From assembly GCF_003790525.1 (NCBI RefSeq), contig NZ_CP033635.1: a stretch of DNA of 64,000 nt. The stretch is one strand, 5' to 3'. The position numbers and the translations under genes were made by a program. The notes below the pieces were generated by a model. That model was not told the DNA's origin. It did no database searches and was given only the letters and a program-made list of their open reading frames with translations. This stretch comes from Escherichia coli (GTDB lineage: Bacteria; Pseudomonadota; Gammaproteobacteria; Enterobacterales; Enterobacteriaceae). Position 1 is the first letter of the stretch, and every line of letters starts with the position of its first letter. Shown here in pieces: positions 1 through 10,111 of the stretch.

Positions 1-2
1 GT

Positions 3-272
3 GAAAACCTGATTGTTAATCGCCTCGCCATCCCACATTGCTGGAGCGAACAGGAGCGACGTTTTCGTGGATTTTTTATTACCCTCGCCCAACCGGTTGA
101 GGTGAATAACGAAGTAGTTAACCATGTACTGATCGCCTGTGCCGCCGCCGATGCGCGTCATGAGCTAAAAATATTTAGCTATCTGGCAAGCGTATTGTGC
201 CAGCATCCGGCAGAGGTTATTGCCGGGTTAACAGGATATGAGGCATTTATGGAGTTACTTCACAAGGGGTGA
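3..272 (+). CDS. C-terminal fragment (about 89 codons; 5' end outside window) of an ORF ending at TGA 270-272; by position probably the frv-operon regulator gene that neighbours yiiG
   Basis: Frame-3 open from window edge to stop; absent from ORF track because it has no in-window start; identity rests on remembered synteny only. Confidence 0.35.
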   Translation, partial: ENLIVNRLAIPHCWSEQERRFRGFFITLAQPVEVNNEVVNHVLIACAAADARHELKIFSYLASVLCQHPAEVIAGLTGYEAFMELLHKG

Positions 273-275
273 ACT

Positions 276-300
276 GTGTCGGATGCGCCGCATCCGACAC
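276..300. terminator. Inverted repeat GTGTCGGATGCG / CGCATCCGACAC between convergent ORFs
   Basis: Palindrome read directly; no strong U-run, so terminator function is uncertain. Confidence 0.35.
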
Positions 301-327
301 TGCATTTATCACCAAAATCAAAAACGT

Positions 328-1383
328 TTAACGCAAGCTATTATAGTCATCGACCATTTCGTTGTACTCGCGTAACGCTCGTGGAAATGAGTCGTCGACC
401 ATCCAGCTTGTGTTTGCATCCTGAAGTTGCTCTTTATCCCAGTCAGAATACGGAACTTTATCTCTGACGCGGCGAACATATTTTTTAGCCTCGAGTTGAT
501 ACTGGTCTGCCGAATTAATGAACGAGAAATTCATACCGCCTTTATCCGCTTCTTTGGCCTGCGCCACCAGCGTTTCCAGTTCAGACACTTTCTTCATTGC
601 CGCATCAACATCAAACTTCTCTTGCGATATCAGGTTATTAATTTGTTTCGCTGAAATCATGACTGCCAGAGAATAGTAGTGGAATGTTTTCCCTTCTCTT
701 TCTTCAATATTTTTCAGTTCCGCAAGCTGACGCTTATCATTAATTTCCTGGATCGCCGCATGATAAGATTCGGCTACAGGTTCAAAGGCTTCCAGATTTT
801 TTAAGAATGTCTGGTGCAGCGTTTTCCCTTTCGCAAACGCATCGTCTTTATAATTTTCCTGGGTGTAATATTTATCCATTTCGTTAATGGTATTACCCAA
901 CGCCACGGCAGCATCGATATAACTCACCGCTACGCCATCAATAGGTTGCAGCGCAGGCGTTAACGCCACAGCACTTTTTACGCCTTTTTCACACTCAGCG
1001 AGGCTGGATTCACTAAAGCCGTAGATGCCATAAACAGTACTCTCTTTACCGGTAGGCCCCTGTTTAAAATCTTTCAGCCAGTCAGCATAACGCGCCAGAC
1101 TGCGCTGTACCGGGATCTGTAACTTGTTGTAGCACTTGATATAGACATCCATTTTTTCGTCGAAAACCGCTTGTTCATCGACCACCGGTTGGGCAGGAGT
1201 TTCAGGTTTAACTTCTGCTTTTGCAACGGGAGCTTCAGCAGGTTTCGCTTCAGGAGCTGGTGCGGCAGGTTGACTATTGGCAGGCGGGGGCGTTTCTGTT
1301 TCGGCTTTTTTATCATCACAACCCGTGAGACCGAGGGCCATGATGGCGACTATAATAGCGGAAGATAATAAATTCCTTTTCAT
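328..1383 (-). CDS. yiiG: YiiG-family lipoprotein (DUF3829-like)
   Basis: 351-aa ORF; signal peptide with lipobox LTGC; Pro/Ala/Glu-rich linker; expected position relative to fdhD. Confidence 0.85.
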   Translation of the reverse strand: MKRNLLSSAIIVAIMALGLTGCDDKKAETETPPPANSQPAAPAPEAKPAEAPVAKAEVKPETPAQPVVDEQAVFDEKMDVYIKCYNKLQIPVQRSLARYADWLKDFKQGPTGKESTVYGIYGFSESSLAECEKGVKSAVALTPALQPIDGVAVSYIDAAVALGNTINEMDKYYTQENYKDDAFAKGKTLHQTFLKNLEAFEPVAESYHAAIQEINDKRQLAELKNIEEREGKTFHYYSLAVMISAKQINNLISQEKFDVDAAMKKVSELETLVAQAKEADKGGMNFSFINSADQYQLEAKKYVRRVRDKVPYSDWDKEQLQDANTSWMVDDSFPRALREYNEMVDDYNSLR

Positions 1384-1577
1384 TTAATTGCCTTATAAAT
1401 ATTTAGATAAGAGAGATAATATTTTAAATGAAAAAATGATCCGTCACTATACACATTTTGCTTATAAACAAACCGAAATCATTCACACTCCGAATAATTC
1501 CTGCGACTTAAAATATAAATCGCAGGAAGCGATTTTAATTACCCGCTCTACCACTGGCGCAGGATATAAACTCTCAC

Positions 1578-3884
1578 CTACATTCCATAACGTTCAGAAA
1601 TAGCAGCATGCTTCTCTTCATTCGCCCCGGCTTCTTTGGCAAGACGCCACCAGCACAACGGATGTTCCCAGTCAGCGGTCAATTCGTGCAAGGTCTTATC
1701 GATATCACCTTTAGAAACTGAACGCGGCGCGCTGATAACAAAGTAGAACGCGGGCAGCGGCTGTGCATCTTCTCCCTGCTGGCTGTCCGTTAACGTATAG
1801 TCCTCGTTACTGTTGCTCCAGTAGTACCAGTTTCGTTCACGGAGCGCCTCACGGAAGGCATTAAACTGTTCTTCACCAGGCATGACACCTTCGCAGAACC
1901 AGGACTCGCCGTACTCAGTCGGGATAATGGTTTGCAGGCAGGCATAAAGTGGCGTGAAATTCTTCCGTTCTTCCTCATCCTCTGGTTGGGTGTTCAATAT
2001 TTCCGCATCGAATACCACAACTTCATCAACATGTTGCGGATAATCGGTCCGGTAAGTTGGCTCAATGATCCTTGCTGTTACCGGCCCAATACGTTGAGCA
2101 TAGTAATAGCGGTATTCATAATTTTCCCGGAAGCGAATGTTTAGCAGTCCCCATTTTTCGTCGATAAAACCTTCACCTTCCGTAAGTTCGATTTCCAGTT
2201 CAGCTGCAATAGCACGAACCAAATCCCATTGTTGCAGGATGCTGGCGGTCGCCATGATATCCCACTGGATATTACGAATATCTTCTTCACGGCTAATCAT
2301 CAGTTGCTGCAATTGTTGTAAATAATCCAGCTGTCGATCCCAGGCTTCCTGTTTTTGTGCTGCCCAGGAGCACATGCGATAAACGCCGATCCACTCACGC
2401 CCTTTTTCGTTTTGCAGCAACTGGTGCCCAATCGACTCGAGTTCACTCCAGTCTTCCTGTTGGTTGATCACTCGCGCACGGAACCACAAGGCCATATGTA
2501 GCAGCCCCGCCTGTTCATACTGCTTCGCCAGGTGCTCAATGGTTTGCAGATCGTCACGGTGGAGCAATAAATCCAACAGATCGAAGCAAAGACCATTATC
2601 TTCCTGGATGTGGCTTTCGACGTAGCGTTGCAGAAGTTCAATCGACTCATCAATCGCATTACAGGCGTTTAACGCATTGACCAGTTTGCCCAGCAATTCC
2701 GCATCATCTGGCGCGTTCAGGTAAGCGCGGCGGAATGTTTCGACGTCTTTTTCTGGATCTGGCTGCGTTTCTTCATCGCTATTTTCAGGTACTTCTACAA
2801 CCGGACGAGCAAGCAACTCTGCTTCTTTGGCGGCGATTTTTTCACTCAGTTCGAGAAACTCACGATCAACCCCCAGTAACACGCGTAATTTTGGCATGTG
2901 TCGCTGGGCCAGTTTCATCGCTATTTTGGCAACCCAGACGGATTCACGCTCCAGCGCCAGGGTAATTTGCAGTTTCGCCAGATCAACCACTTTGCGGTGC
3001 GCTCCGGCCTGCGAGCGGTGCTCCAGCATTTTTTGGATGATGCGCGCCAGTTGCCAGTTGTTTCTTTGTGGATGACGGGGAAGTAACACAGTAATGATTT
3101 TCAGCCATGACCCCCATGAATGGGGAGTCAGATCTGACCAACGCGGTAATTCCTCCCAGACTTCTTCGTCCTGCCCGCATAACGCCATGATGTACAGTTT
3201 TTTGAGGTGATTACTAATGCGGTCGCGGCCCCAGTAATCATTGGCTTCTGTCAGCTCATCAATCAGTATGCGTGCTTCATCATAACGCTGAAGTTCAATC
3301 AGAATATCGGCACGAGTATAAAGTAATGCATCAATATCATCTTCCCCGGCTGCTTTAACTGCGTCGATTTGTCGATCCAGATAAGCCAGTGCCTCCTCTA
3401 TTCTTTTGGAATCTATCAGTGCACTGGCATATTCAGTGGACAAACACTGAAAACAGCTCCAGGTCGGATCAATCCGCGCGATGGTTTCTTCACATACCGC
3501 CATACGTTCATTCGCCCAGCCAGGTGCATCAATATTTTCGTAGCAGGCGGATAAATCCTGGGTAACGCAGATAGATTGTGGGCAATCTTTTGTCTCTTCC
3601 CGGTGCGCTTTTTCAAACAGCGCTACCACGTCTGGCAGCACCTTTTCACCTTCTTCATAGTTAGTCAGGCGATGACGCATTTCCCAGTGACCAATAAATA
3701 TTTCCAGCCACGGATTTTTTGCCACCTGGGTAAGTGCTTTTACTTCAGGTAACAGCGAATCGCACTTTTCCATTTGCAGGTGCATAACGCCTTCCGAATA
3801 ATCATCGATAAGTTGCGGAATATACTCCTGCCCGGCATCGCGTAACTCCTTAGTATATTTGTGATACCACTCCCATATATCCAT
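1578..3884 (-). CDS. 768-aa acidic, Trp-rich, predicted alpha-helical repeat (TPR-like) protein of unknown function; distal gene of the accessory Hsp90-like operon
   Basis: Long uninterrupted ORF; its ATG (3882-3884) lies 1 nt after the TAA (3886-3888) of the upstream gene, with SD-like AAGGAA just upstream; no catalytic motif recognised. Confidence 0.75.
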   Translation of the reverse strand: MDIWEWYHKYTKELRDAGQEYIPQLIDDYSEGVMHLQMEKCDSLLPEVKALTQVAKNPWLEIFIGHWEMRHRLTNYEEGEKVLPDVVALFEKAHREETKDCPQSICVTQDLSACYENIDAPGWANERMAVCEETIARIDPTWSCFQCLSTEYASALIDSKRIEEALAYLDRQIDAVKAAGEDDIDALLYTRADILIELQRYDEARILIDELTEANDYWGRDRISNHLKKLYIMALCGQDEEVWEELPRWSDLTPHSWGSWLKIITVLLPRHPQRNNWQLARIIQKMLEHRSQAGAHRKVVDLAKLQITLALERESVWVAKIAMKLAQRHMPKLRVLLGVDREFLELSEKIAAKEAELLARPVVEVPENSDEETQPDPEKDVETFRRAYLNAPDDAELLGKLVNALNACNAIDESIELLQRYVESHIQEDNGLCFDLLDLLLHRDDLQTIEHLAKQYEQAGLLHMALWFRARVINQQEDWSELESIGHQLLQNEKGREWIGVYRMCSWAAQKQEAWDRQLDYLQQLQQLMISREEDIRNIQWDIMATASILQQWDLVRAIAAELEIELTEGEGFIDEKWGLLNIRFRENYEYRYYYAQRIGPVTARIIEPTYRTDYPQHVDEVVVFDAEILNTQPEDEEERKNFTPLYACLQTIIPTEYGESWFCEGVMPGEEQFNAFREALRERNWYYWSNSNEDYTLTDSQQGEDAQPLPAFYFVISAPRSVSKGDIDKTLHELTADWEHPLCWWRLAKEAGANEEKHAAISERYGM

Positions 3885-3885
3885 T

Positions 3886-5721
3886 TTATTTTCCTTGATT
3901 AATTAAGACAGGAATAACCTGAGTAAAATCTTCCAGTGCCTGGTGTAAATCCCACTGCTGTTCTTTATTACCGCTGGAGCACAAAATCACTTTCAGCGAT
4001 TTTAATAAGCGTAATGCCGCTGCGGGCTGTTGCTGGTGTTGTAATGCCGTCACCAGTTGCATGATGCAAGGGTTATTAAGGTTGATGTATAAACTTGAGG
4101 TTTTCGTTTTTTGGATTTGTGAAGTAAATTGCCGCGCCAGCATTAACGCTGCGGTGCTGATGCGTTTATCTGCGTCATCCTGTTCGAGAATTTGTTTTAA
4201 TTCTGCTTCGCGGTCTGGCGTAACCACTAACGGTAAAACGGCGGGTTCGAAGCGGGAGATAATTAATTGCTCGCCATCGCAGAGATGCTCTTCCAGATAA
4301 GCTACCTGCTCTTCGGGTAATTCCGCCAGGCTGAACAACTGCTCATTACCTGTTTGCGTACCGACTTCGACAATCCGGCAGTGATATAACAGCGCCCAGC
4401 GACGTAAAAATGGCACGACGGCATAGCGATCGCCACGGGCAACGGGCCGTTGCAGAATGTGGAACAACATCTCTTCAAAACCGCCGTCGCGGCTTAACAG
4501 AATATGAATGCTGTTATTAACGCGTAAATCCTTCGCCAGCAACGCCCCTTTTGACGTTGGCACCTGCAAGCGATCTTTGAGCAAATCAAACAGACGGTCA
4601 TCACATAATGCCGCACCGAGCAACGCTTCGTTGTGGCGCATTAATACACGCCGCCAGATTTCTGGCTGATTTTGTGCGAGATCGGACAAACCAGAAATCA
4701 GCGCCTCTTTTAACGCCTCCTGCACCGCAACCCAGGTTTCGTCCCGCTGGAGATCTTCCCGGCTCGCCGTAGGCGTTAGTTTCGATGACTCAATCACGCC
4801 GCCAATAAATCCGGCCCAGGGAGGTAACAACTCACGCGCTTCATCATCCAGTAACATACCGCGCAAAAACAGCGACAGGTTGCGGTTATCGCTGGTGCCG
4901 TAGGTTGCGCCATCCTGAATCCATAAAATCCCAACCGCGTCGCTCATCCCCACGGGCACCACCGGAATGGTGCAAATCGGTTCGAAGGAGGATTCAAACT
5001 GGGCGGCAAAGGCGAGATTTTTACGCTGTACCAGCGCGCGGTGCATGGTTACGCCTTCGGGGGCAACTTCACGCCACGGTGGTTGAAGTTTATTTACCGG
5101 CTCGCTGGCATCGCCGACATAGACCGGTTCGTGCAGCAATATACAGTAGCGGGAAAGAACGCGGTTCAGCAAATTGTTACTCGCCAGATGGCTGTACTCT
5201 TCTTTGAGCGTCAGAATCACCTGCGTACCCGTTTCCGAGGACTGATGCGGCGTAACGGTATATTTTTGCCCGTCGGTAGAGTGGTATTTCCAGCTCTGAT
5301 CCGGCGTTTGCCAGGATGTGGTCAACACCGTGACCTCTTTCGCCAACACAAAGGCCGACAAAAAACCGAGGCCGAACATACCAATTAAACCGGTGTTGTC
5401 ATCCTGCTGGCGCAACATTCGGGTATAACCCACGCCTACTGTCGCCAGGAAGCCGTGAATTTCACTTTCTGTCAGTCCAGCGCCAGTATCGCTAATAGTG
5501 ATAGTGGACTTCGCCACGTCTGCCACCACACGAATCGCGTTATCCTTTGGTGCATCGGGCTGCTCAATCCTGCGGCGAACGATCGCATCATGGCCGTTCT
5601 GCACCAGCTCGCGCACGGCAACCACGGGAGTGGAGTAAAGATGCTTACTGAGCACCTCAATTAAGCCGTTTAAATTAACTTCTGTAGAATATGAACTACC
5701 AGGTAACTGTAATGTACTCAT
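3886..5721 (-). CDS. Divergent Hsp90/HtpG-family (GHKL) ATPase paralog, 611 aa
   Basis: Bergerat-fold motifs in order: E38xxxN42xxD45 (RELVQNGHDA), D78TGAG (ISDTGAGL), G114MFGLGFLSAF; middle-domain signature LPPWAGFIGGVIESSKLTPTASRE resembles Hsp90 FxRGVVDSEDLPLNISRE; shorter than canonical HtpG. Confidence 0.8.
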   Translation of the reverse strand: MSTLQLPGSSYSTEVNLNGLIEVLSKHLYSTPVVAVRELVQNGHDAIVRRRIEQPDAPKDNAIRVVADVAKSTITISDTGAGLTESEIHGFLATVGVGYTRMLRQQDDNTGLIGMFGLGFLSAFVLAKEVTVLTTSWQTPDQSWKYHSTDGQKYTVTPHQSSETGTQVILTLKEEYSHLASNNLLNRVLSRYCILLHEPVYVGDASEPVNKLQPPWREVAPEGVTMHRALVQRKNLAFAAQFESSFEPICTIPVVPVGMSDAVGILWIQDGATYGTSDNRNLSLFLRGMLLDDEARELLPPWAGFIGGVIESSKLTPTASREDLQRDETWVAVQEALKEALISGLSDLAQNQPEIWRRVLMRHNEALLGAALCDDRLFDLLKDRLQVPTSKGALLAKDLRVNNSIHILLSRDGGFEEMLFHILQRPVARGDRYAVVPFLRRWALLYHCRIVEVGTQTGNEQLFSLAELPEEQVAYLEEHLCDGEQLIISRFEPAVLPLVVTPDREAELKQILEQDDADKRISTAALMLARQFTSQIQKTKTSSLYINLNNPCIMQLVTALQHQQQPAAALRLLKSLKVILCSSGNKEQQWDLHQALEDFTQVIPVLINQGK

Positions 5722-6030
5722 TTTTCAATACTCATAATCCATCACCTACTATTGAAAATACATCGCTGTTTTTACAACCGGTGCAAGGTTTGTTATTTCA
5801 TTCACTCATCGGAAACATTTATTTATTGACGCGATGATTAAAACAAAATGTCTTATATAAATAATGATTAATTCTTAAAGGATTAATGCGACTGGAGTAT
5901 ATCGATATAACCCGGAGTTAACGAGATAATTTCTTGTGGTGAAATTATTATTTGAATGCTGAATAATATATTGAGGATTATTTAATAGAAAAATAAAACC
6001 GCAATCCAGAATCAGAATTGCGGTATTTCT

Positions 6031-6867
6031 TTAATTATGAATCAAACGCTGCGGATGGGTATAAACCGTTGCCCGACCCGGTTTACAAAAACCTACCAGT
6101 GTCAGATTACAGCGCTCAGCCACTTCTACAGCAAGCGTGGTCGCGGCAGACACCGCAAACAAAATCTCTACGCCGCACATCGCTGACTTTTGCACCATTT
6201 CATAACTGGCACGGCTGGAAACCAGCACCGCACCTTGCTGCCAGCTTTCCCCTTCTTGTGACCGGCGGCCTAACAGTTTGTCCAGCGCCACATGGCGACC
6301 CACGTCTTCATGCCCGCCGACCAGTTCGCCAGATGGCAACATCCAGGCGGCGGCGTGAGTACAACCGGTCAGTTGCCCCACTGGCTGAAAATCATTGAGA
6401 TGACGTAATGCATCATCCAGTTTGTTGAGATCAAACGTCTGGGTGAACGGTAGCGGCTGCACCGGTTTTCCGATGTCATTAAGTTGCTCCACGCCGCACA
6501 CGCCACATCCCGTACGTCCCGCCAGTGCCCGGCGACGCTCCTTCAACCCCATAAAGCGGCGGCTGGAAAGCTCAATTTGCACTTCCAGACCATTACAGGA
6601 AGGAACGACATCCATACCGAAGATATCGCGCGGACTTTCGATAATCCCCTCGGAAAGCGAAAAACCGAGCGCAAAGTACTCAAGGTCTTTGGGTGACGCC
6701 ATCATCACTACATGCGAAATGCCGTTGTAGACCAGCGCAACGGGAACCTCTTCCGCCACCTCATCTAACCGTGGGTGTTGTAAATCATCACGCCGCCATA
6801 ACTCAATTTGACGAACACCTGTGACACTTGTCACATTTTCGATTTCTTTTTGCTGTGTTTTTTTCAC
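6031..6867 (-). CDS. fdhD: FdhD, sulfurtransferase required for formate dehydrogenase activity
   Basis: 278-aa ORF with characteristic FdhD sequence; divergent from fdoG. Confidence 0.9.
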
Positions 6868-7060
6868 TTTCTCTTAACCAGATAAGAACACACACACCAA
6901 CATTATGGTATTCTGTTACAAACCCTTCCTGGATGGAGGGAAATTGAGCCAATTCTGGACCTTTGCGGCCCCTTCCGCAAAGAAAAATAACTCCCACTCC
7001 CTGCACACGCAGCAAGCGAATGTAAATGGGACGTGACAATGTCGAAACAAGGAGCAATCC

Positions 7061-10000
7061 ATGCAGGTCAGCAGAAGGCAGTTCTTTAAGATCTGCGCTG
7101 GCGGTATGGCAGGCACCACGGCAGCGGCACTGGGTTTTGCACCCAGCGTAGCACTCGCGGAAACCCGGCAGTATAAACTGCTGCGCACCCGCGAAACCCG
7201 TAATACCTGCACCTATTGTTCCGTAGGCTGTGGGCTGTTGATGTACAGCCTCGGTGACGGAGCAAAAAACGCCAAAGCATCTATCTTCCATATCGAAGGT
7301 GACCCGGATCACCCGGTCAACCGCGGAGCACTTTGTCCGAAAGGCGCTGGCCTGGTGGATTTCATCCACTCCGAAAGCCGCCTGAAGTTTCCGGAATACC
7401 GTGCGCCAGGTTCTGATAAATGGCAACAAATCAGTTGGGAAGAGGCGTTTGATCGCATCGCCAAACTGATGAAAGAAGACCGCGATGCGAACTACATTGC
7501 GCAAAACGCCGAAGGCGTGACTGTTAACCGCTGGCTCTCCACCGGGATGCTGTGTGCTTCCGCGTCGAGCAACGAAACCGGCTATTTAACACAAAAATTC
7601 TCCCGCGCGCTGGGTATGCTCGCGGTCGACAACCAGGCGCGTGTCTGACACGGACCAACGGTAGCAAGTCTTGCTCCAACATTTGGTCGCGGTGCGATGA
7701 CCAACCACTGGGTCGACATCAAGAATGCCAACCTCGTCGTGGTGATGGGCGGTAACGCCGCTGAAGCTCACCCGGTCGGGTTCCGCTGGGCGATGGAAGC
7801 CAAAATTCACAACGGCGCGAAGCTGATTGTGATCGATCCTCGCTTTACACGTACGGCGGCGGTGGCTGACTACTATGCCCCTATTCGTTCCGGGACTGAC
7901 ATTGCTTTCCTGTCAGGCGTATTGCTGTACCTGCTGAACAATGAAAAATTCAACCGCGAATACACCGAAGCCTATACCAACGCCAGCCTGATCGTGCGTG
8001 AGGATTACGGCTTTGAAGATGGCCTGTTCACCGGCTACGACGCGGAAAAACGCAAGTACGATAAATCCAGCTGGACCTACGAGCTGGACGAAAACGGCTT
8101 CGCCAAACGCGATACCACGCTGCAACATCCGCGCTGCGTGTGGAACTTGCTGAAACAGCACGTTTCCCGTTATACGCCAGATGTGGTTGAAAACATCTGT
8201 GGTACGCCGAAAGACGCGTTCCTGAAAGTCTGCGAATACATCGCAGAGACCAGTGCTCACGATAAAACTGCCTCGTTCCTTTACGCGCTCGGCTGGACGC
8301 AACACTCCATTGGTGCGCAAAACATTCGTACGATGGCGATGATCCAGCTGCTGCTCGGCAACATGGGGATGGCAGGCGGCGGCGTTAACGCCCTGCGCGG
8401 TCACTCCAATATTCAGGGGCTGACCGACCTGGGGCTGCTGTCGCAGAGTCTGCCAGGTTACATGACGTTGCCAAGCGAGAAGCAGACCGATCTGCAAACT
8501 TACCTTACCGCCAACACGCCGAAACCACTGCTGGAAGGCCAGGTTAACTACTGGGGCAATTACCCGAAATTCTTCGTCTCCATGATGAAGGCCTTCTTTG
8601 GTGATAAAGCGACGGCGGAAAATAACTGGGGCTTTGACTGGTTGCCGAAGTGGGATAAAGGCTACGACGTCCTGCAATACTTCGAGATGATGAAAGAGGG
8701 CAAGGTCAATGGCTATATCTGCCAGGGCTTTAACCCTGTTGCCTCATTCCCGAACAAAAACAAAGTGATCGGCTGTCTGTCGAAACTGAAGTTCCTCGTG
8801 ACCATCGACCCGCTGAACACTGAAACCTCTAACTTCTGGCAGAACCACGGTGAACTGAACGAAGTTGACTCGTCGAAGATCCAGACCGAAGTGTTCCGTC
8901 TGCCATCGACCTGCTTCGCGGAAGAGAACGGTTCAATCGTCAACTCTGGCCGCTGGTTGCAGTGGCACTGGAAAGGTGCGGACGCCCCGGGGATTGCGCT
9001 GACTGACGGCGAGATCCTCTCCGGTATCTTCCTGCGCTTGCGCAAGATGTATGCCGAACAGGGTGGCGCGAACCCGGACCAGGTGCTGAACATGACCTGG
9101 AACTACGCCATTCCGCATGAGCCATCTTCAGAAGAAGTGGCGATGGAGAGTAACGGTAAGGCGCTGGCCGATATTACCGATCCGGCAACCGGTGCGGTTA
9201 TCGTCAAGAAAGGCCAACAACTTAGCTCGTTCGCCCAACTGCGCGATGACGGTACAACCTCCTGTGGCTGCTGGATTTTCGCCGGTAGCTGGACGCCGGA
9301 AGGCAACCAGATGGCGCGTCGTGATAACGCCGATCCGTCTGGCCTCGGTAACACGCTGGGCTGGGCATGGGCATGGCCGCTTAACCGCCGCATTCTGTAT
9401 AACCGCGCCTCCGCAGATCCGCAGGGTAACCCATGGGATCCGAAGCGTCAGTTGCTGAAATGGGACGGCACTAAGTGGACCGGCTGGGATATTCCGGATT
9501 ACAGCGCAGCGCCTCCGGGCAGTGGCGTCGGGCCGTTTATCATGCAGCAGGAAGGCATGGGGCGTCTGTTTGCCCTCGATAAGATGGCGGAAGGTCCGTT
9601 CCCGGAACACTACGAGCCGTTTGAAACGCCGCTGGGAACTAACCCGCTGCATCCAAACGTTATCTCGAACCCGGCTGCGCGAATCTTTAAAGACGACGCC
9701 GAAGCATTGGGTAAAGCCGATAAGTTCCCGTATGTCGGAACCACCTATCGTCTGACCGAGCACTTCCACTACTGGACCAAACACGCGCTGTTGAACGCGA
9801 TTTTGCAACCAGAGCAGTTTGTGGAAATCGGGGAGTCGCTGGCGAATAAACTTGGCATTGCCCAGGGCGATACTGTGAAAGTCTCCTCCAACCGTGGCTA
9901 TATCAAAGCCAAAGCGGTAGTGACCAAACGTATTCGCACGCTGAAAGCAAACGGCAAAGATATCGATACCATCGGTATTCCGATTCACTGGGGCTATGAA

Positions 10001-10111
10001 GGTGTTGCGAAAAAAGGCTTTATTGCCAATACGTTGACGCCATTCGTCGGTGATGCGAACACGCAGACGCCGGAGTTTAAGTCCTTCCTTGTGAATGTGG
10101 AAAAGGTGTAA
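7061..10111 (+). CDS. fdoG: Formate dehydrogenase-O catalytic subunit; selenoprotein with in-frame TGA (Sec) at 7646-7648
   Basis: ORFs 7061-7648 and 7697-10111 are in the same frame, separated only by TGA; frame stays open through ...RVU-HGPTVASLAPTFGRGAM...; Tat signal RRQFFKICAGG at N-terminus. Confidence 0.92.
7646..7695 (+). promoter_or_regulatory. Selenocysteine insertion (SECIS) region immediately 3' of the fdoG UGA
   Basis: Position directly downstream of in-frame TGA; bacterial SECIS hairpins lie within about 40 nt 3' of UGA; exact structure not folded. Confidence 0.6.

What the first reader, a model, noticed from the sequence alone, without database searches (positions are those of the whole stretch)
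1578..5721. Accessory two-gene operon: divergent Hsp90 paralog plus 768-aa helical-repeat partner, inserted between yiiG and fdhD
Seen in sequence: the 611-aa protein carries the full set of GHKL/Bergerat ATP-binding motifs in Hsp90 order (RELVQNGHDA, ISDTGAGL, GMFGLGFLSAF) and a middle-domain segment (FIGGVIESSKLTPTASRE) that parallels the Hsp90 catalytic-loop region, yet it is far shorter than HtpG and lacks an obvious canonical C-terminal dimerisation tail. It is followed 1 nt later by a 768-aa acidic, Trp-rich protein with TPR-like helical repeats and no recognisable enzymatic motif. Established knowledge (memory): yiiG and fdhD are adjacent in K-12, and the canonical htpG sits elsewhere, so this is a second, accessory Hsp90-like module. 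Inference: a dedicated chaperone/client or chaperone/co-chaperone pair, or an ATPase-plus-effector module of the kind seen in stress or anti-phage systems. Bacteria are generally considered to lack Hsp90 co-chaperones, so an Hsp90 paralog hard-wired to a TPR-like partner is unusual.
Basis: partly seen in the sequence, partly recalled or inferred. Interest (0 to 1): 0.85.

Follow-up and report, generated by a model that had tools for sequence, protein, structure and literature searches.

The report
Bacterial Hsp90 paralog with dedicated TPR partner
This E. coli strain carries, besides the normal Hsp90 chaperone, a second, divergent Hsp90 that across several bacterial phyla is almost always encoded next to one particular 90-kDa helical-repeat protein, which suggests an unstudied two-protein chaperone machine in organisms thought to have no Hsp90 helper proteins.

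Summary
Both ORFs are real and lie at the stated coordinates in E. coli SMS-3-5: a 611-aa HSP90-family ATPase and, 1 nt downstream, a 768-aa acidic, Trp-rich TPR protein.

- The paralog is not "far shorter" than HtpG (611 vs 624 aa).
- The segment is probably ancestral, not inserted. It sits at the same locus in E. marmotae, E. fergusonii and ST131, and near fdhD in a Salmonella strain. Its divergence resembles that of the flanks. K-12 therefore looks like a deletion.

The Hsp90 paralogs form their own subfamily, below NCBIfam cut-offs for both HtpG and PRK14083, with every ATPase residue invariant.

Linkage holds in both directions: 75 of 76 partner loci have the paralog upstream, and 50 of 51 paralog loci have the partner downstream. 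No third gene is shared.

The partner has a conserved N-terminal Cys4 module, two TPR solenoids and an unmatched C-terminal α/β domain. The three Cys4-less homologs examined have no Hsp90 neighbour.

There are no defence, plasmid or phage signals. No functional study was found; the P. aeruginosa orthologs are PA1068/PA1069.

Most likely this is a dedicated Hsp90 plus adaptor/co-chaperone module that does not use EEVD. The mechanism is inferred, not shown.

The parts
3886..5721 (-). 611-aa divergent HSP90-family ATPase ('Hsp90p'; RefSeq WP_000105771.1, annotated 'ATP-binding protein')
   Evidence: ORF and annotation. Pfam HATPase_c_3 plus HSP90 middle domain. NCBIfam PRK14083 288.5 bits (cut-off 455) and HtpG 197.5 bits (cut-off 371). 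PDB hits TRAP1/HtpG at E about 5e-30. E38, N42, D78, G82, G114/117/119 and R321 are invariant in 74 sequences: the window protein plus 73 paralogs from partner-bearing loci. dN/dS is 0.024-0.040.
1578..3884 (-). 768-aa, 90-kDa acidic TPR-solenoid partner protein (WP_000355938.1, 'hypothetical protein')
   Evidence: ORF. AF2 model with mean pLDDT 91.7. TPR profile hits. Homologs at 25-95% identity in several phyla. dN/dS is 0.09-0.11.
3405..3884 (-). Partner N-terminal helical module (aa 1-160), the most conserved part of the protein
   Evidence: Mean column identity is 0.61-0.68 for aa 41-160, against about 0.35-0.45 in the TPR body, over 208 sequences. Positions at least 90% identical there include W59, H66, W67, D110, Y115, D119, E133 and E151.
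3444..3584 (-). Cys4 motif C101-P-Q-S-x-C106 ... C144-x-x-C147, a probable metal (Zn) or redox site
   Evidence: Invariant in alignment A1. Present in 202 of 207 full-length homologs and in all 93 assessable non-identical Hsp90-linked partners. Lost in the three homologs that have no Hsp90 neighbour. Metal binding is inferred, not tested.
2199..3437 (-). Two TPR-like alpha-solenoids (aa about 150-360 and 377-562) joined by an acidic low-confidence linker (aa about 360-376)
   Evidence: AF2 secondary structure and pLDDT dip at residues 361-376. Profile hits to TPR/PPR structures map to positions 154-283 and 374-547. Foldseek hits are all TPR scaffolds.
1581..2150 (-). Partner C-terminal alpha/beta domain (aa about 579-768) of unknown function
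3892..3896 (-). Shine-Dalgarno-like AAGGA for the partner, inside the last codons of the Hsp90p gene, 7 nt before the ATG
   Evidence: Read from the sequence CAAGGAAAATAAAATG. Translational coupling is an inference.
5718..5735 (-). 5-codon upstream ORF (ATGAGTATTGAAAAATGA, MSIEK*) whose stop overlaps the Hsp90p start codon (ATGA)
   Evidence: The 18 nt are identical in E. marmotae, E. fergusonii, E. whittamii and ST131, although the spacer as a whole is only 76% identical to E. marmotae. The purine-rich GGTGATGG lies upstream of the uORF ATG, and I saw no Shine-Dalgarno-like sequence before the main ATG. In Superficieibacter the upstream ATG is in frame.
5722..6030 (-). AT-rich spacer between fdhD and Hsp90p; presumed promoter region, with no recognisable sigma-32 -10 element
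   Evidence: GC 0.38-0.39. No sigma-70-like site on the minus strand in this spacer. No CCCCAT.
5998..6024 (-). Terminator-like hairpin directly after fdhD, inside the variable segment
1517..1535 (-). Terminator-like hairpin downstream of the partner gene, in sequence shared with K-12
   Evidence: and the K-12 alignment.
1534..1541 (.). Left copy of the 8-bp direct repeat TTTAATTA bounding the segment that K-12 lacks
6030..6037 (.). Right copy of TTTAATTA, overlapping the fdhD stop codon

Best explanation
The two genes encode a self-contained, ATP-driven chaperone module.

- The 611-aa protein is a working Hsp90-type split ATPase of a distinct bacterial subfamily.
- The 768-aa protein is its dedicated adaptor/co-chaperone. 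It is made with the ATPase from one operon with a very short spacer.
- The partner probably docks on the Hsp90 paralog through its highly conserved N-terminal Cys4-containing helical module.
- It then uses its two TPR solenoids and its C-terminal α/β domain to hold or deliver clients that are still unknown. The Cys4 site may tie this to metal or redox state.
- It would work like eukaryotic Hsp90-TPR co-chaperone pairs, but not by recognising a C-terminal EEVD peptide.

**Shown:** family assignment, intact catalytic residues, two-way gene linkage, purifying selection, domain architecture, and the fact that Cys4 presence tracks Hsp90 linkage.

**Inferred:** physical complex, docking site, metal binding, adaptor role.
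For: - **Hsp90 identity.** Pfam HATPase_c_3 plus HSP90 middle domain. NCBIfam's two HSP90 models are the top hits over nearly the whole length. TRAP1, HtpG and Grp94 are the best PDB matches.
- **Intact ATPase.** All ATPase residues, including the middle-domain Arg (R321, equivalent to HtpG R336), are invariant in 74 sequences.
- **Coherent separate subfamily.** Paralogs from Xanthomonas, P. aeruginosa, Holophaga, a Chloroflexi MAG and unnamed metagenome contigs all score 261-292 bits on PRK14083 and 181-200 bits on HtpG. All are below both cut-offs.
- **Linkage from the partner side.** The paralog lies directly upstream on the same strand in 75 of 76 assessable species genomes and in 6 of 6 assessable look-ups.
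- **Linkage from the Hsp90 side.** 49 of 51 assessable metagenome loci have the partner directly downstream, and one more has it 3.2 kb downstream.
- **Operon spacing.** The median spacer is 24 nt and 10 of 94 pairs overlap. In E. coli the spacer is 1 nt, with an SD-like AAGGA inside the upstream gene.
- **No third component.** Only these two genes recur among 27 loci from different lineages.
- **Inherited and lost together.** All 254 E. coli genomes with any match cover at least 80% of the two-gene query.
- **Selection.** dN/dS is 0.02-0.04 for the paralog and about 0.1 for the partner.
- **Cys4 tracks linkage.** All 93 assessable non-identical linked partners have the motif. All 3 Cys4-less homologs examined lack an Hsp90 neighbour.
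- **Expression.** PA1069 protein is detected in P. aeruginosa proteomes (PMC4053335, PMC5541441).
Against: - No direct evidence of binding. No complex prediction could be run.
- The Hsp90 paralog has no conserved C-terminal peptide for a TPR clamp.
- Thorsellia has a Cys4-bearing partner with no Hsp90 gene within 4.7 kb upstream or about 6 kb downstream. The more distant actinobacterial-type homologs also stand alone, so the partner scaffold can exist without an adjacent Hsp90.
- The three Cys4-less cases are probably only one or two independent lineages. The genome scan pattern itself contained CPQSxC, which is an ascertainment bias.
- No client is known.
- The operon is not heat-induced in P. 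aeruginosa: PA1069 falls about 4-fold at 46 °C while htpG rises (PMC4957987). Its role is therefore not classical heat-shock proteostasis.
Confidence: 0.45

Rival explanations
1. Private chaperone and obligate client. The 90-kDa partner is the thing being folded or matured, for example by loading or maintaining its Cys4 metal site. The Hsp90 paralog exists only to make it functional, and the partner carries the real but unknown activity.
For: The linkage, spacing and joint-loss data fit this equally well. The Hsp90 neighbour disappears exactly where the Cys4 site is lost, as expected if that site is what needs the chaperone. The partner is large, multidomain and Trp-rich.
Against: AF2 predicts a confident, regular solenoid with no obviously problematic fold. 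No catalytic domain or conserved catalytic constellation was found in the partner. Thorsellia keeps a Cys4-bearing partner without an adjacent Hsp90 gene.
Confidence: 0.25
2. Stress-sensing switch. The partner is a redox- or metal-sensitive regulator, loosely comparable to Hsp33, which to my recollection uses a Cys4 zinc centre. It would gate the Hsp90 paralog under oxidative, metal or biofilm-type stress rather than deliver clients.
For: The conserved Cys4 motif sits in the most conserved module. The operon is not heat-induced in P. aeruginosa. PA1069 abundance changes with Ca2+, biofilm growth and surface adhesion, and PA1069 lies next to an AmrZ ChIP peak.
Against: No test of metal binding or redox sensitivity was possible. 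The omics associations are incidental list entries. The Cys spacing differs from the Hsp33 spacing I recall.
Confidence: 0.12
3. Anti-phage or other conflict system made of a GHKL ATPase plus a TPR sensor/effector.
For: The distribution is patchy: at least 157 of 100,044 species genomes, in several phyla, and 4.7% of complete E. coli genomes. GHKL ATPases occur in some defence proteins (PMC12137116). There are weak N-domain-only PADLOC hits to TmtA and a type II restriction enzyme.
Against: There are no real PADLOC matches: the ATPase hits are E 5.7e-6 or weaker and confined to the N-domain, and the partner has none. No nuclease, toxin or other effector domain was detected. Neighbours are ordinary metabolic or regulatory genes and differ between taxa. 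The locus is inherited vertically at a fixed position in Escherichia. The family is essentially absent from plasmids and phages: three hits in the plasmid collection, two in records of 0.85 and 11.85 Mb and one in a 29-kb Xanthomonas record, and one hit in the phage collection, in a Salmonella genome contig. Purifying selection on the ATPase is very strong.
Confidence: 0.07
4. Two functionally unrelated genes that merely share an operon.
For: None specific. No interaction has been shown.
Against: Adjacency is maintained in both directions across Proteobacteria, Acidobacteriota and Chloroflexota while every other neighbour changes.
Confidence: 0.03

Closest known systems
Bacterial HtpG (Hsp90 group A; NCBIfam PRK05218)
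   Same: Same three-domain HSP90 family. Length is similar (611 vs 624 aa) and the two align end to end. The catalytic residues are identical (E34, N38, D80, the Gly-rich motif and R336 equivalents).
   Different: Only 24% identical. It scores 197.5 bits against a cut-off of 371. It lacks HtpG residues 478-503 and carries its own insertions. It is present in 4.7% rather than about 100% of complete E. coli genomes. It has a dedicated downstream partner gene. Its P. aeruginosa operon is repressed, not induced, by heat.
Divergent bacterial HSP90 lineages: HtpG groups B and C of Chen et al. 2006 (PMC1525184), the hsp90B/hsp90C of Press et al. 2013 (PMC3708813); NCBIfam PRK14083 'HSP90 family protein'
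   Same: PRK14083 is the best-scoring curated model, aligned over residues 13-571. Long-branching Hsp90 paralogs that coexist with group A copies in one genome are already recognised, and group C includes gamma-proteobacterial members.
   Different: Every partner-linked paralog tested scores 261-292 bits, well below the 455-bit cut-off. By NCBI's criterion it is therefore a sister subfamily rather than a member. Neither paper mentions a conserved partner gene in the passages I read. I could not place it on a tree with groups B and C.
Eukaryotic Hsp90 TPR co-chaperones (Hop/Sti1, PP5, CHIP, UNC-45, Tah1, Tom70 class; recalled from general knowledge)
   Same: A TPR-repeat protein functionally tied to an Hsp90. 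It is a large scaffold with an extra non-TPR domain, as in UNC-45 or PP5.
   Different: These proteins recognise the C-terminal MEEVD of Hsp90 through a carboxylate clamp. The paralog's C-terminal tails are variable and non-acidic. There is no sequence homology beyond generic TPR. The link here is operon-encoded and close to one-to-one.
Hsp33 redox-switch zinc centre (recalled from general knowledge, as a comparison for the Cys4 motif)
   Same: Two closely spaced Cys, then about 30-40 residues, then CxxC, in a protein linked to chaperone function.
   Different: The spacing is CxxxxC...CxxC, not the CxC...CxxC I recall. The fold is different (helical repeat). Metal binding and redox sensitivity are untested.
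P. aeruginosa PA1068 / PA1069
   Same: Orthologous pair: about 57% and 41% identity in strain PA7. The gene order next to the braG-type ABC genes and flgB in locus L005 matches the PAO1 numbering I recall. PA1069 is described as apparently operonic with an Hsp90 gene (PMC4053335).
   Different: It appears only as an entry in omics tables. I found no functional study.

Membership tests
HSP90 family | N-terminal GHKL/Bergerat ATP-binding domain with the catalytic Glu, Mg-binding Asn, adenine-binding Asp and Gly-rich lid motifs | tested here: met
   Pfam HATPase_c_3 E 3.2e-9. E38, N42, D45, D78, G80/G82 and G114/G117/G119 align to HtpG and are invariant in 74 sequences.
HSP90 family | Hsp90-type middle domain carrying the catalytic-loop Arg (yeast R380 / HtpG R336) in the SRE motif | tested here: met
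   Pfam HSP90 on residues 274-353, E 1.1e-7. S320-R321-E322 align to HtpG S335-R336-E337, and R321 is invariant. PDB alignments to TRAP1 and HtpG run through residue about 359.
HSP90 family | C-terminal dimerisation domain | tested here: inconclusive
   The PRK14083 profile aligns to residue 571 of 611 (profile position 562 of 604). MAFFT aligns it to the end of HtpG, but at low identity. No structure of the paralog was predicted, and dimerisation cannot be tested here.
HtpG (NCBIfam PRK05218 equivalog) | Score at or above the curated cut-off of 371 bits | tested here: not met
   197.5 bits. E. coli HtpG itself scores 861.7 bits.
NCBIfam PRK14083 'HSP90 family protein' equivalog | Score at or above the curated cut-off of 455 bits | tested here: not met
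   288.5 bits for the E. coli protein and 261-292 bits for seven other partner-linked paralogs.
   All top PDB and NCBIfam hits are Hsp90s. The only non-Hsp90 hits are N-domain-only and weak: BbrUII/HgiDII restriction enzyme 37 bits, sacsin 30 bits, TmtA 23 bits.
Eukaryote-type TPR co-chaperones of Hsp90 | TPR repeats | tested here: met
   Weak Pfam TPR_12/TPR_19 hits. The family profile hits TPR structures down to E 5.6e-53. Helical solenoid in the AF2 model and Foldseek hits to TPR scaffolds.
Eukaryote-type TPR co-chaperones of Hsp90 | A conserved acidic C-terminal (M)EEVD-type peptide on the Hsp90 for the TPR clamp to bind | tested here: not met
   The paralogs' C-terminal tails are variable and carry no conserved acidic motif. 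The last 11 columns have a mean identity of 0.43.
Eukaryote-type TPR co-chaperones of Hsp90 | Physical binding to Hsp90 and modulation of its ATPase cycle | not testable with these tools
   No multimer prediction or experiment was available. Gene linkage is the only evidence.
Known or candidate anti-phage defence systems (PADLOC-DB 2.0) | Match to a defence-protein model | tested here: not met
   The partner has no hits. The ATPase has only weak N-domain hits (best E 5.7e-6).
Known or candidate anti-phage defence systems (PADLOC-DB 2.0) | Location in defence islands or on mobile elements | tested here: not met
   Neighbours are metabolic or regulatory genes and vary between taxa. The position is fixed in Escherichia. 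The family is essentially absent from plasmid and phage collections.
Zinc or redox Cys4 centres (Hsp33-like switch) | Four conserved Cys that coordinate a metal | tested here: inconclusive
   The four Cys are conserved in 202 of 207 homologs. Model coordinates could not be read and metal binding cannot be tested.

The most novel reading that the evidence does not exclude
This is the first prokaryotic Hsp90 with an obligate, genetically hard-wired TPR co-chaperone. The partner docks through a Cys4 metal/redox-sensing module and couples the Hsp90 ATPase cycle to a specific set of clients under non-thermal stress. Hsp90-co-chaperone partnerships would then not be a purely eukaryotic invention.
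Probability: 0.3. Interest if true: 0.8.

Novelty: new variant of a known kind. Interest (0 to 1): 0.62.

Why it matters
As I recall the field's view, bacterial Hsp90 works without co-chaperones, and its clients and physiological role remain poorly defined. Divergent bacterial Hsp90 lineages were set aside in at least one large analysis (PMC3708813).

Here a distinct Hsp90 subfamily is tied almost one-to-one to a single TPR protein, across Proteobacteria, Acidobacteriota and Chloroflexota. That offers a simple two-gene system for asking how an Hsp90 is directed to its targets.

The pair is present in organisms that are easy to work with or clinically relevant: E. coli ST131 and SMS-3-5, P. aeruginosa (PA1068/PA1069), Stenotrophomonas maltophilia, Xanthomonas and some Salmonella. 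K-12 is a natural null background.

If the partner proves to be a true co-chaperone, or a redox- or metal-gated one, it would change the picture of how Hsp90 regulation evolved.

Tried and rejected
1. **Known defence system.** PADLOC gave nothing meaningful, and the plasmid and phage searches were essentially empty. Rejected as the leading idea.
2. **MutL/MORC-type GHKL.** Rejected on profile and PDB hits.
3. **Recent insertion or mobile island.** There are no mobility genes. Synteny holds across Escherichia species, near fdhD in a Salmonella strain, and divergence resembles the flanks. Reinterpreted as an ancestral locus lost in K-12. The 8-bp repeat at both ends fits a deletion, but the junction sequences are not identical, so this is only suggestive.
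5. **Other architectures containing the C-terminal domain.** None were seen among the 150 listed of 433 representatives.
6. **A conserved third gene.** None.
7. **Heat-shock promoter.** No CCCCAT and no minus-strand sigma-70-like site in the upstream spacer. The promoter is unassigned.
8. **Literature.** Searches by name, locus tag and accession found no functional study.
9. **More Cys4-less neighbourhoods.** One look-up found no record. A further plasmid search added nothing.
10. **Cys4 geometry.** Model coordinates are not exposed.
11. **DnaK- and client-contact residues.** The HtpG positions I recalled from memory are mostly not conserved in the paralog. The positions are unverified and the alignment there is weak, so I draw no conclusion.

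Full report
**What is in the window**

The window is 100% identical to the E. coli SMS-3-5 chromosome. On the minus strand lie a 611-aa ORF (3886-5721) and a 768-aa ORF (1578-3884). A single nucleotide separates the stop codon of the first from the ATG of the second.

An AAGGA sits 7 nt before the second ATG, inside the last codons of the first gene. RefSeq calls the two products 'ATP-binding protein' and 'hypothetical protein'.

The 768-aa protein weighs 90 kDa, has pI 4.70 and contains 27 Trp. A K-12 derivative has yiiG and fdhD 152 nt apart. Relative to it, SMS-3-5 has about 4.49 kb extra (about 1542-6029), bounded by an 8-bp direct repeat TTTAATTA.

**Corrections to the observation**

E. 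coli HtpG is 624 aa, so the 611-aa paralog is not 'far shorter'. The two proteins align end to end at 24% identity. The NCBIfam PRK14083 profile aligns to residue 571 of 611, so nothing indicates that the C-terminal domain is missing.

The word 'inserted' is probably the wrong polarity.
- The same order, fdhD - Hsp90 paralog - partner - yiiG, occurs in E. marmotae and in one E. fergusonii contig, where yiiG is split. A second E. fergusonii contig has the pair but no yiiG. E. coli ST131 has the same order.
- The paralog also lies directly upstream of the partner in E. whittamii and unnamed Escherichia species.
- Salmonella Infantis SARB27 has the pair four annotated genes downstream of fdhD.
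- Nucleotide identity to E. marmotae is 91.6% for the paralog and 87.8% for the partner, against 88.7% for fdhD and 90.1% for yiiG.
- Synonymous divergence from E. marmotae is 0.43-0.56 for the pair, against 0.59 for fdhD and 0.30 for yiiG.

This pattern fits vertical inheritance followed by loss in most E. coli. Of 5426 complete E. coli genomes, 254 carry the pair. It is always chromosomal, always single-copy and always present as both genes. htpG is found in 5424 of the 5426.

**The ATPase is an Hsp90, in a subfamily of its own**

Pfam finds HATPase_c_3 plus the HSP90 middle domain. The best PDB sequence matches are TRAP1, HtpG and Grp94, across residues about 10-359 (E about 5e-30).

NCBIfam ranks PRK14083 'HSP90 family protein' first (288.5 bits, cut-off 455) and HtpG second (197.5 bits, cut-off 371). 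Seven other partner-linked paralogs give the same sub-threshold scores, 261-292 and 181-200 bits. They come from Xanthomonas, P. aeruginosa, Holophaga, a Rhodocyclaceae MAG, a Chloroflexi MAG and two unnamed metagenome contigs.

This is therefore a coherent lineage, nearer to the divergent bacterial Hsp90s than to HtpG. Divergent lineages of that kind are already recognised: groups B and C of PMC1525184, ignored in the analysis of PMC3708813. By NCBI's cut-offs the protein belongs to neither curated family.

In 74 sequences (the window protein plus 73 paralogs from partner-bearing loci) the following are invariant:
- E38, N42 and D78
- the Gly-rich motif
- the middle-domain Arg R321, equivalent to HtpG R336

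dN/dS is 0.024-0.040. The C-terminal tails vary and carry no EEVD-like motif.

**The partner**

Pfam gives only weak TPR hits. A profile built from 34 homologs hits TPR and PPR structures over positions about 154-283 and 374-547.

The AF2 model (mean pLDDT 91.7) shows four parts:
- a helical region covering residues 1-360
- an acidic, low-confidence linker (about 360-376)
- a second TPR solenoid (377-562)
- an α/β domain (about 579-768)

The most conserved region is residues 41-160. It contains C101-P-Q-S-x-C106 ... C144-x-x-C147, conserved in 202 of 207 full-length homologs, along with conserved Trp, His and acidic residues. A metal or redox site is a reasonable inference, but I could not test it. 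dN/dS for the partner is about 0.1.

**Linkage**

*From the partner side.* A scan of one genome per species found the partner in at least 157 of 100,044 species. Among the 80 loci kept:
- Enterobacterales: Escherichia, Superficieibacter, Phytobacter, Kosakonia, Budvicia
- Xanthomonas, Stenotrophomonas and Lysobacter
- P. aeruginosa
- several Betaproteobacteria
- an alphaproteobacterial MAG
- Holophaga
- a Chloroflexi MAG

The paralog lies directly upstream on the same strand in 75 of 76 assessable loci. The same was true of all six assessable metagenome or genome look-ups. A seventh look-up returned no DNA.

*From the Hsp90 side.* I scanned metagenomes for DNA encoding the subfamily-specific peptide TYGTSDNRNL. 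This gave 61 loci, all of which encode the paralog. Of the 51 assessable loci:
- 49 have the partner directly downstream
- one has it 3.2 kb downstream on the same strand
- one is a fragmentary remnant without a partner

*Spacing and neighbours.* Across 94 non-identical pairs the median spacer is 24 nt and 10 pairs overlap. Among 27 loci from different lineages, only these two genes recur.

**A correlation that bears on mechanism**

All 93 assessable non-identical Hsp90-linked partners carry the Cys4 motif. The three Cys4-less homologs whose neighbourhoods I could read have no Hsp90-like gene within 5-6 kb on either side. They are from Nonomuraea and from two assemblies whose organisms the tools did not name.

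This suggests that the N-terminal Cys4 module is the part functionally tied to the Hsp90 paralog. Three caveats apply.
- The three cases are likely one or two lineages.
- The genome scan pattern contained CPQSxC.
- Thorsellia keeps the motif without an adjacent paralog.

**What it is probably not**

- PADLOC gives no meaningful hit.
- No effector-like domain was found.
- Neighbours are ordinary and vary between taxa.
- Plasmid and phage collections contain essentially no copies.

A defence role is therefore unlikely.

It is also not a classical heat-shock gene. The upstream spacer has no CCCCAT element. In P. aeruginosa, PA1069 falls about 4-fold at 46 °C while htpG rises (PMC4957987).

**Existing knowledge**

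The P. aeruginosa orthologs are PA1068 and PA1069. The gene order next to the braG-type ABC genes and flgB matches the PAO1 numbering I recall. PA1069 is noted to appear operonic with an Hsp90 gene (PMC4053335). It otherwise appears only in proteome, ChIP-seq and pull-down tables. Some database records call the E. coli protein 'Hsp90xo protein' or 'heat shock protein (Hsp90-family)'. No paper in the searchable library treats the pair as a system.

**Verdict**

This is a real, selectively maintained two-gene module: a distinct Hsp90 subfamily plus a dedicated TPR/Cys4 partner. It is ancestral at this locus in Escherichia and lost from K-12.

The best-supported mechanism is a dedicated Hsp90-adaptor/co-chaperone machine that does not use EEVD recognition (confidence about 0.45). 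An obligate-client relationship is the main rival (about 0.25). The physical interaction, the metal site and the clients are all inferred.

It is a new variant of a known kind, and of moderate to high interest because bacterial Hsp90 is generally held to lack co-chaperones.

Noticed in passing
window 5718-5735 (-): A 5-codon uORF (MSIEK*) ends in an ATGA overlap with the Hsp90-paralog start codon. Its 18 nt are identical in E. marmotae, E. fergusonii, E. whittamii and ST131. The purine-rich GGTGATGG precedes the uORF ATG, and I saw no Shine-Dalgarno-like sequence before the main ATG. In Superficieibacter the upstream ATG is in frame with the gene. This may reflect termination-reinitiation coupling or a mis-set start codon.
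   Followed up: partly
window 1-1577 (frvR 3' end, yiiG and spacer) versus L099, L015, L016: The yiiG/frvR side of the locus is unusually divergent within E. coli. Between SMS-3-5 and ST131, yiiG is 83.4% identical, the frvR end 87.9% and the partner 89.3%, while fdoG is 97.6%. Complete genomes carry two allele classes of the pair: at least 99% identity in 77 genomes and 90-95% in 163. In one E. fergusonii contig yiiG is split into two DUF3829 fragments, and in another it is absent. This suggests an old polymorphism or introgression.
   Followed up: partly
window 6030-6040 versus L002 2530-2545: The boundary of the segment missing from K-12 falls on the fdhD stop codon. FdhD ends ...QRLIHN* in SMS-3-5 (278 aa) and ...QRLSN* in K-12 (277 aa). 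In SMS-3-5 fdhD has its own hairpin (5998-6024). In K-12 it is followed by the hairpin that lies downstream of the partner gene in SMS-3-5.
   Followed up: partly
L133 1534-8843: A metagenome variant has about 3.2 kb, with two or three ORFs lacking any NCBIfam match, between the Hsp90 paralog and the partner. Another partner homolog (P0365, no DNA available) has a 507-aa gene reaching the contig end and a 434-aa gene with no Pfam hit upstream, plus an HSP20 gene downstream. A longer form of the operon may exist.
   Followed up: partly
L080 (Thorsellia anophelis) 4755-7061: A Cys4-bearing partner homolog has no Hsp90-like gene within 4.7 kb upstream or about 6 kb downstream. The upstream genes are nicotinate phosphoribosyltransferase and a PRPP-synthetase-like gene. 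Whether a paralog lies elsewhere in that genome is unknown.
   Followed up: partly
L109 6662-7081: A metagenome contig holds only a fragment of the paralog (residues about 258-397), followed by unrelated genes including a flippase-like membrane protein. It is probably a decayed copy.
   Followed up: no
L101 (Salmonella Infantis SARB27): The pair (paralog 91%, partner 76% identical to SMS-3-5) lies four annotated genes downstream of fdhD. Neither gene's annotation carries an LT2 (STM) locus-tag cross-reference, unlike several neighbouring genes, so the pair may be variable in Salmonella too. The record sits in the 'phages' collection although it is a 156-kb genome contig.
   Followed up: partly
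window 7061-10111 (+): The gene annotated 'fdnG' (formate dehydrogenase-N subunit alpha), beside fdhD, appears as two ORFs (195 aa and 804 aa). RefSeq annotates one CDS beginning at window 7061 that runs beyond the fetched stretch; the E. fergusonii counterpart is called as 1016 aa. From general knowledge this fits the in-frame UGA selenocysteine codon. It is ordinary.
   Followed up: no
L003/L004 12067-17486 (Xanthomonas hortorum): In Xanthomonas the pair has an AraC-type regulator upstream. Downstream, after an Old-Yellow-Enzyme-type reductase, comes an RsbR/STAS - STAS - HATPase_c - SpoIIE - histidine-kinase cluster that resembles a partner-switching or stressosome module. Neither is conserved outside Xanthomonas.
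   Followed up: no
H51, H53 (plasmid collection): Two of the three 'plasmid' hits are in very large records: an 847-kb P. aeruginosa record and the 11.85-Mb Nonomuraea 'plasmid I'. They probably do not count as evidence of mobility.
   Followed up: no
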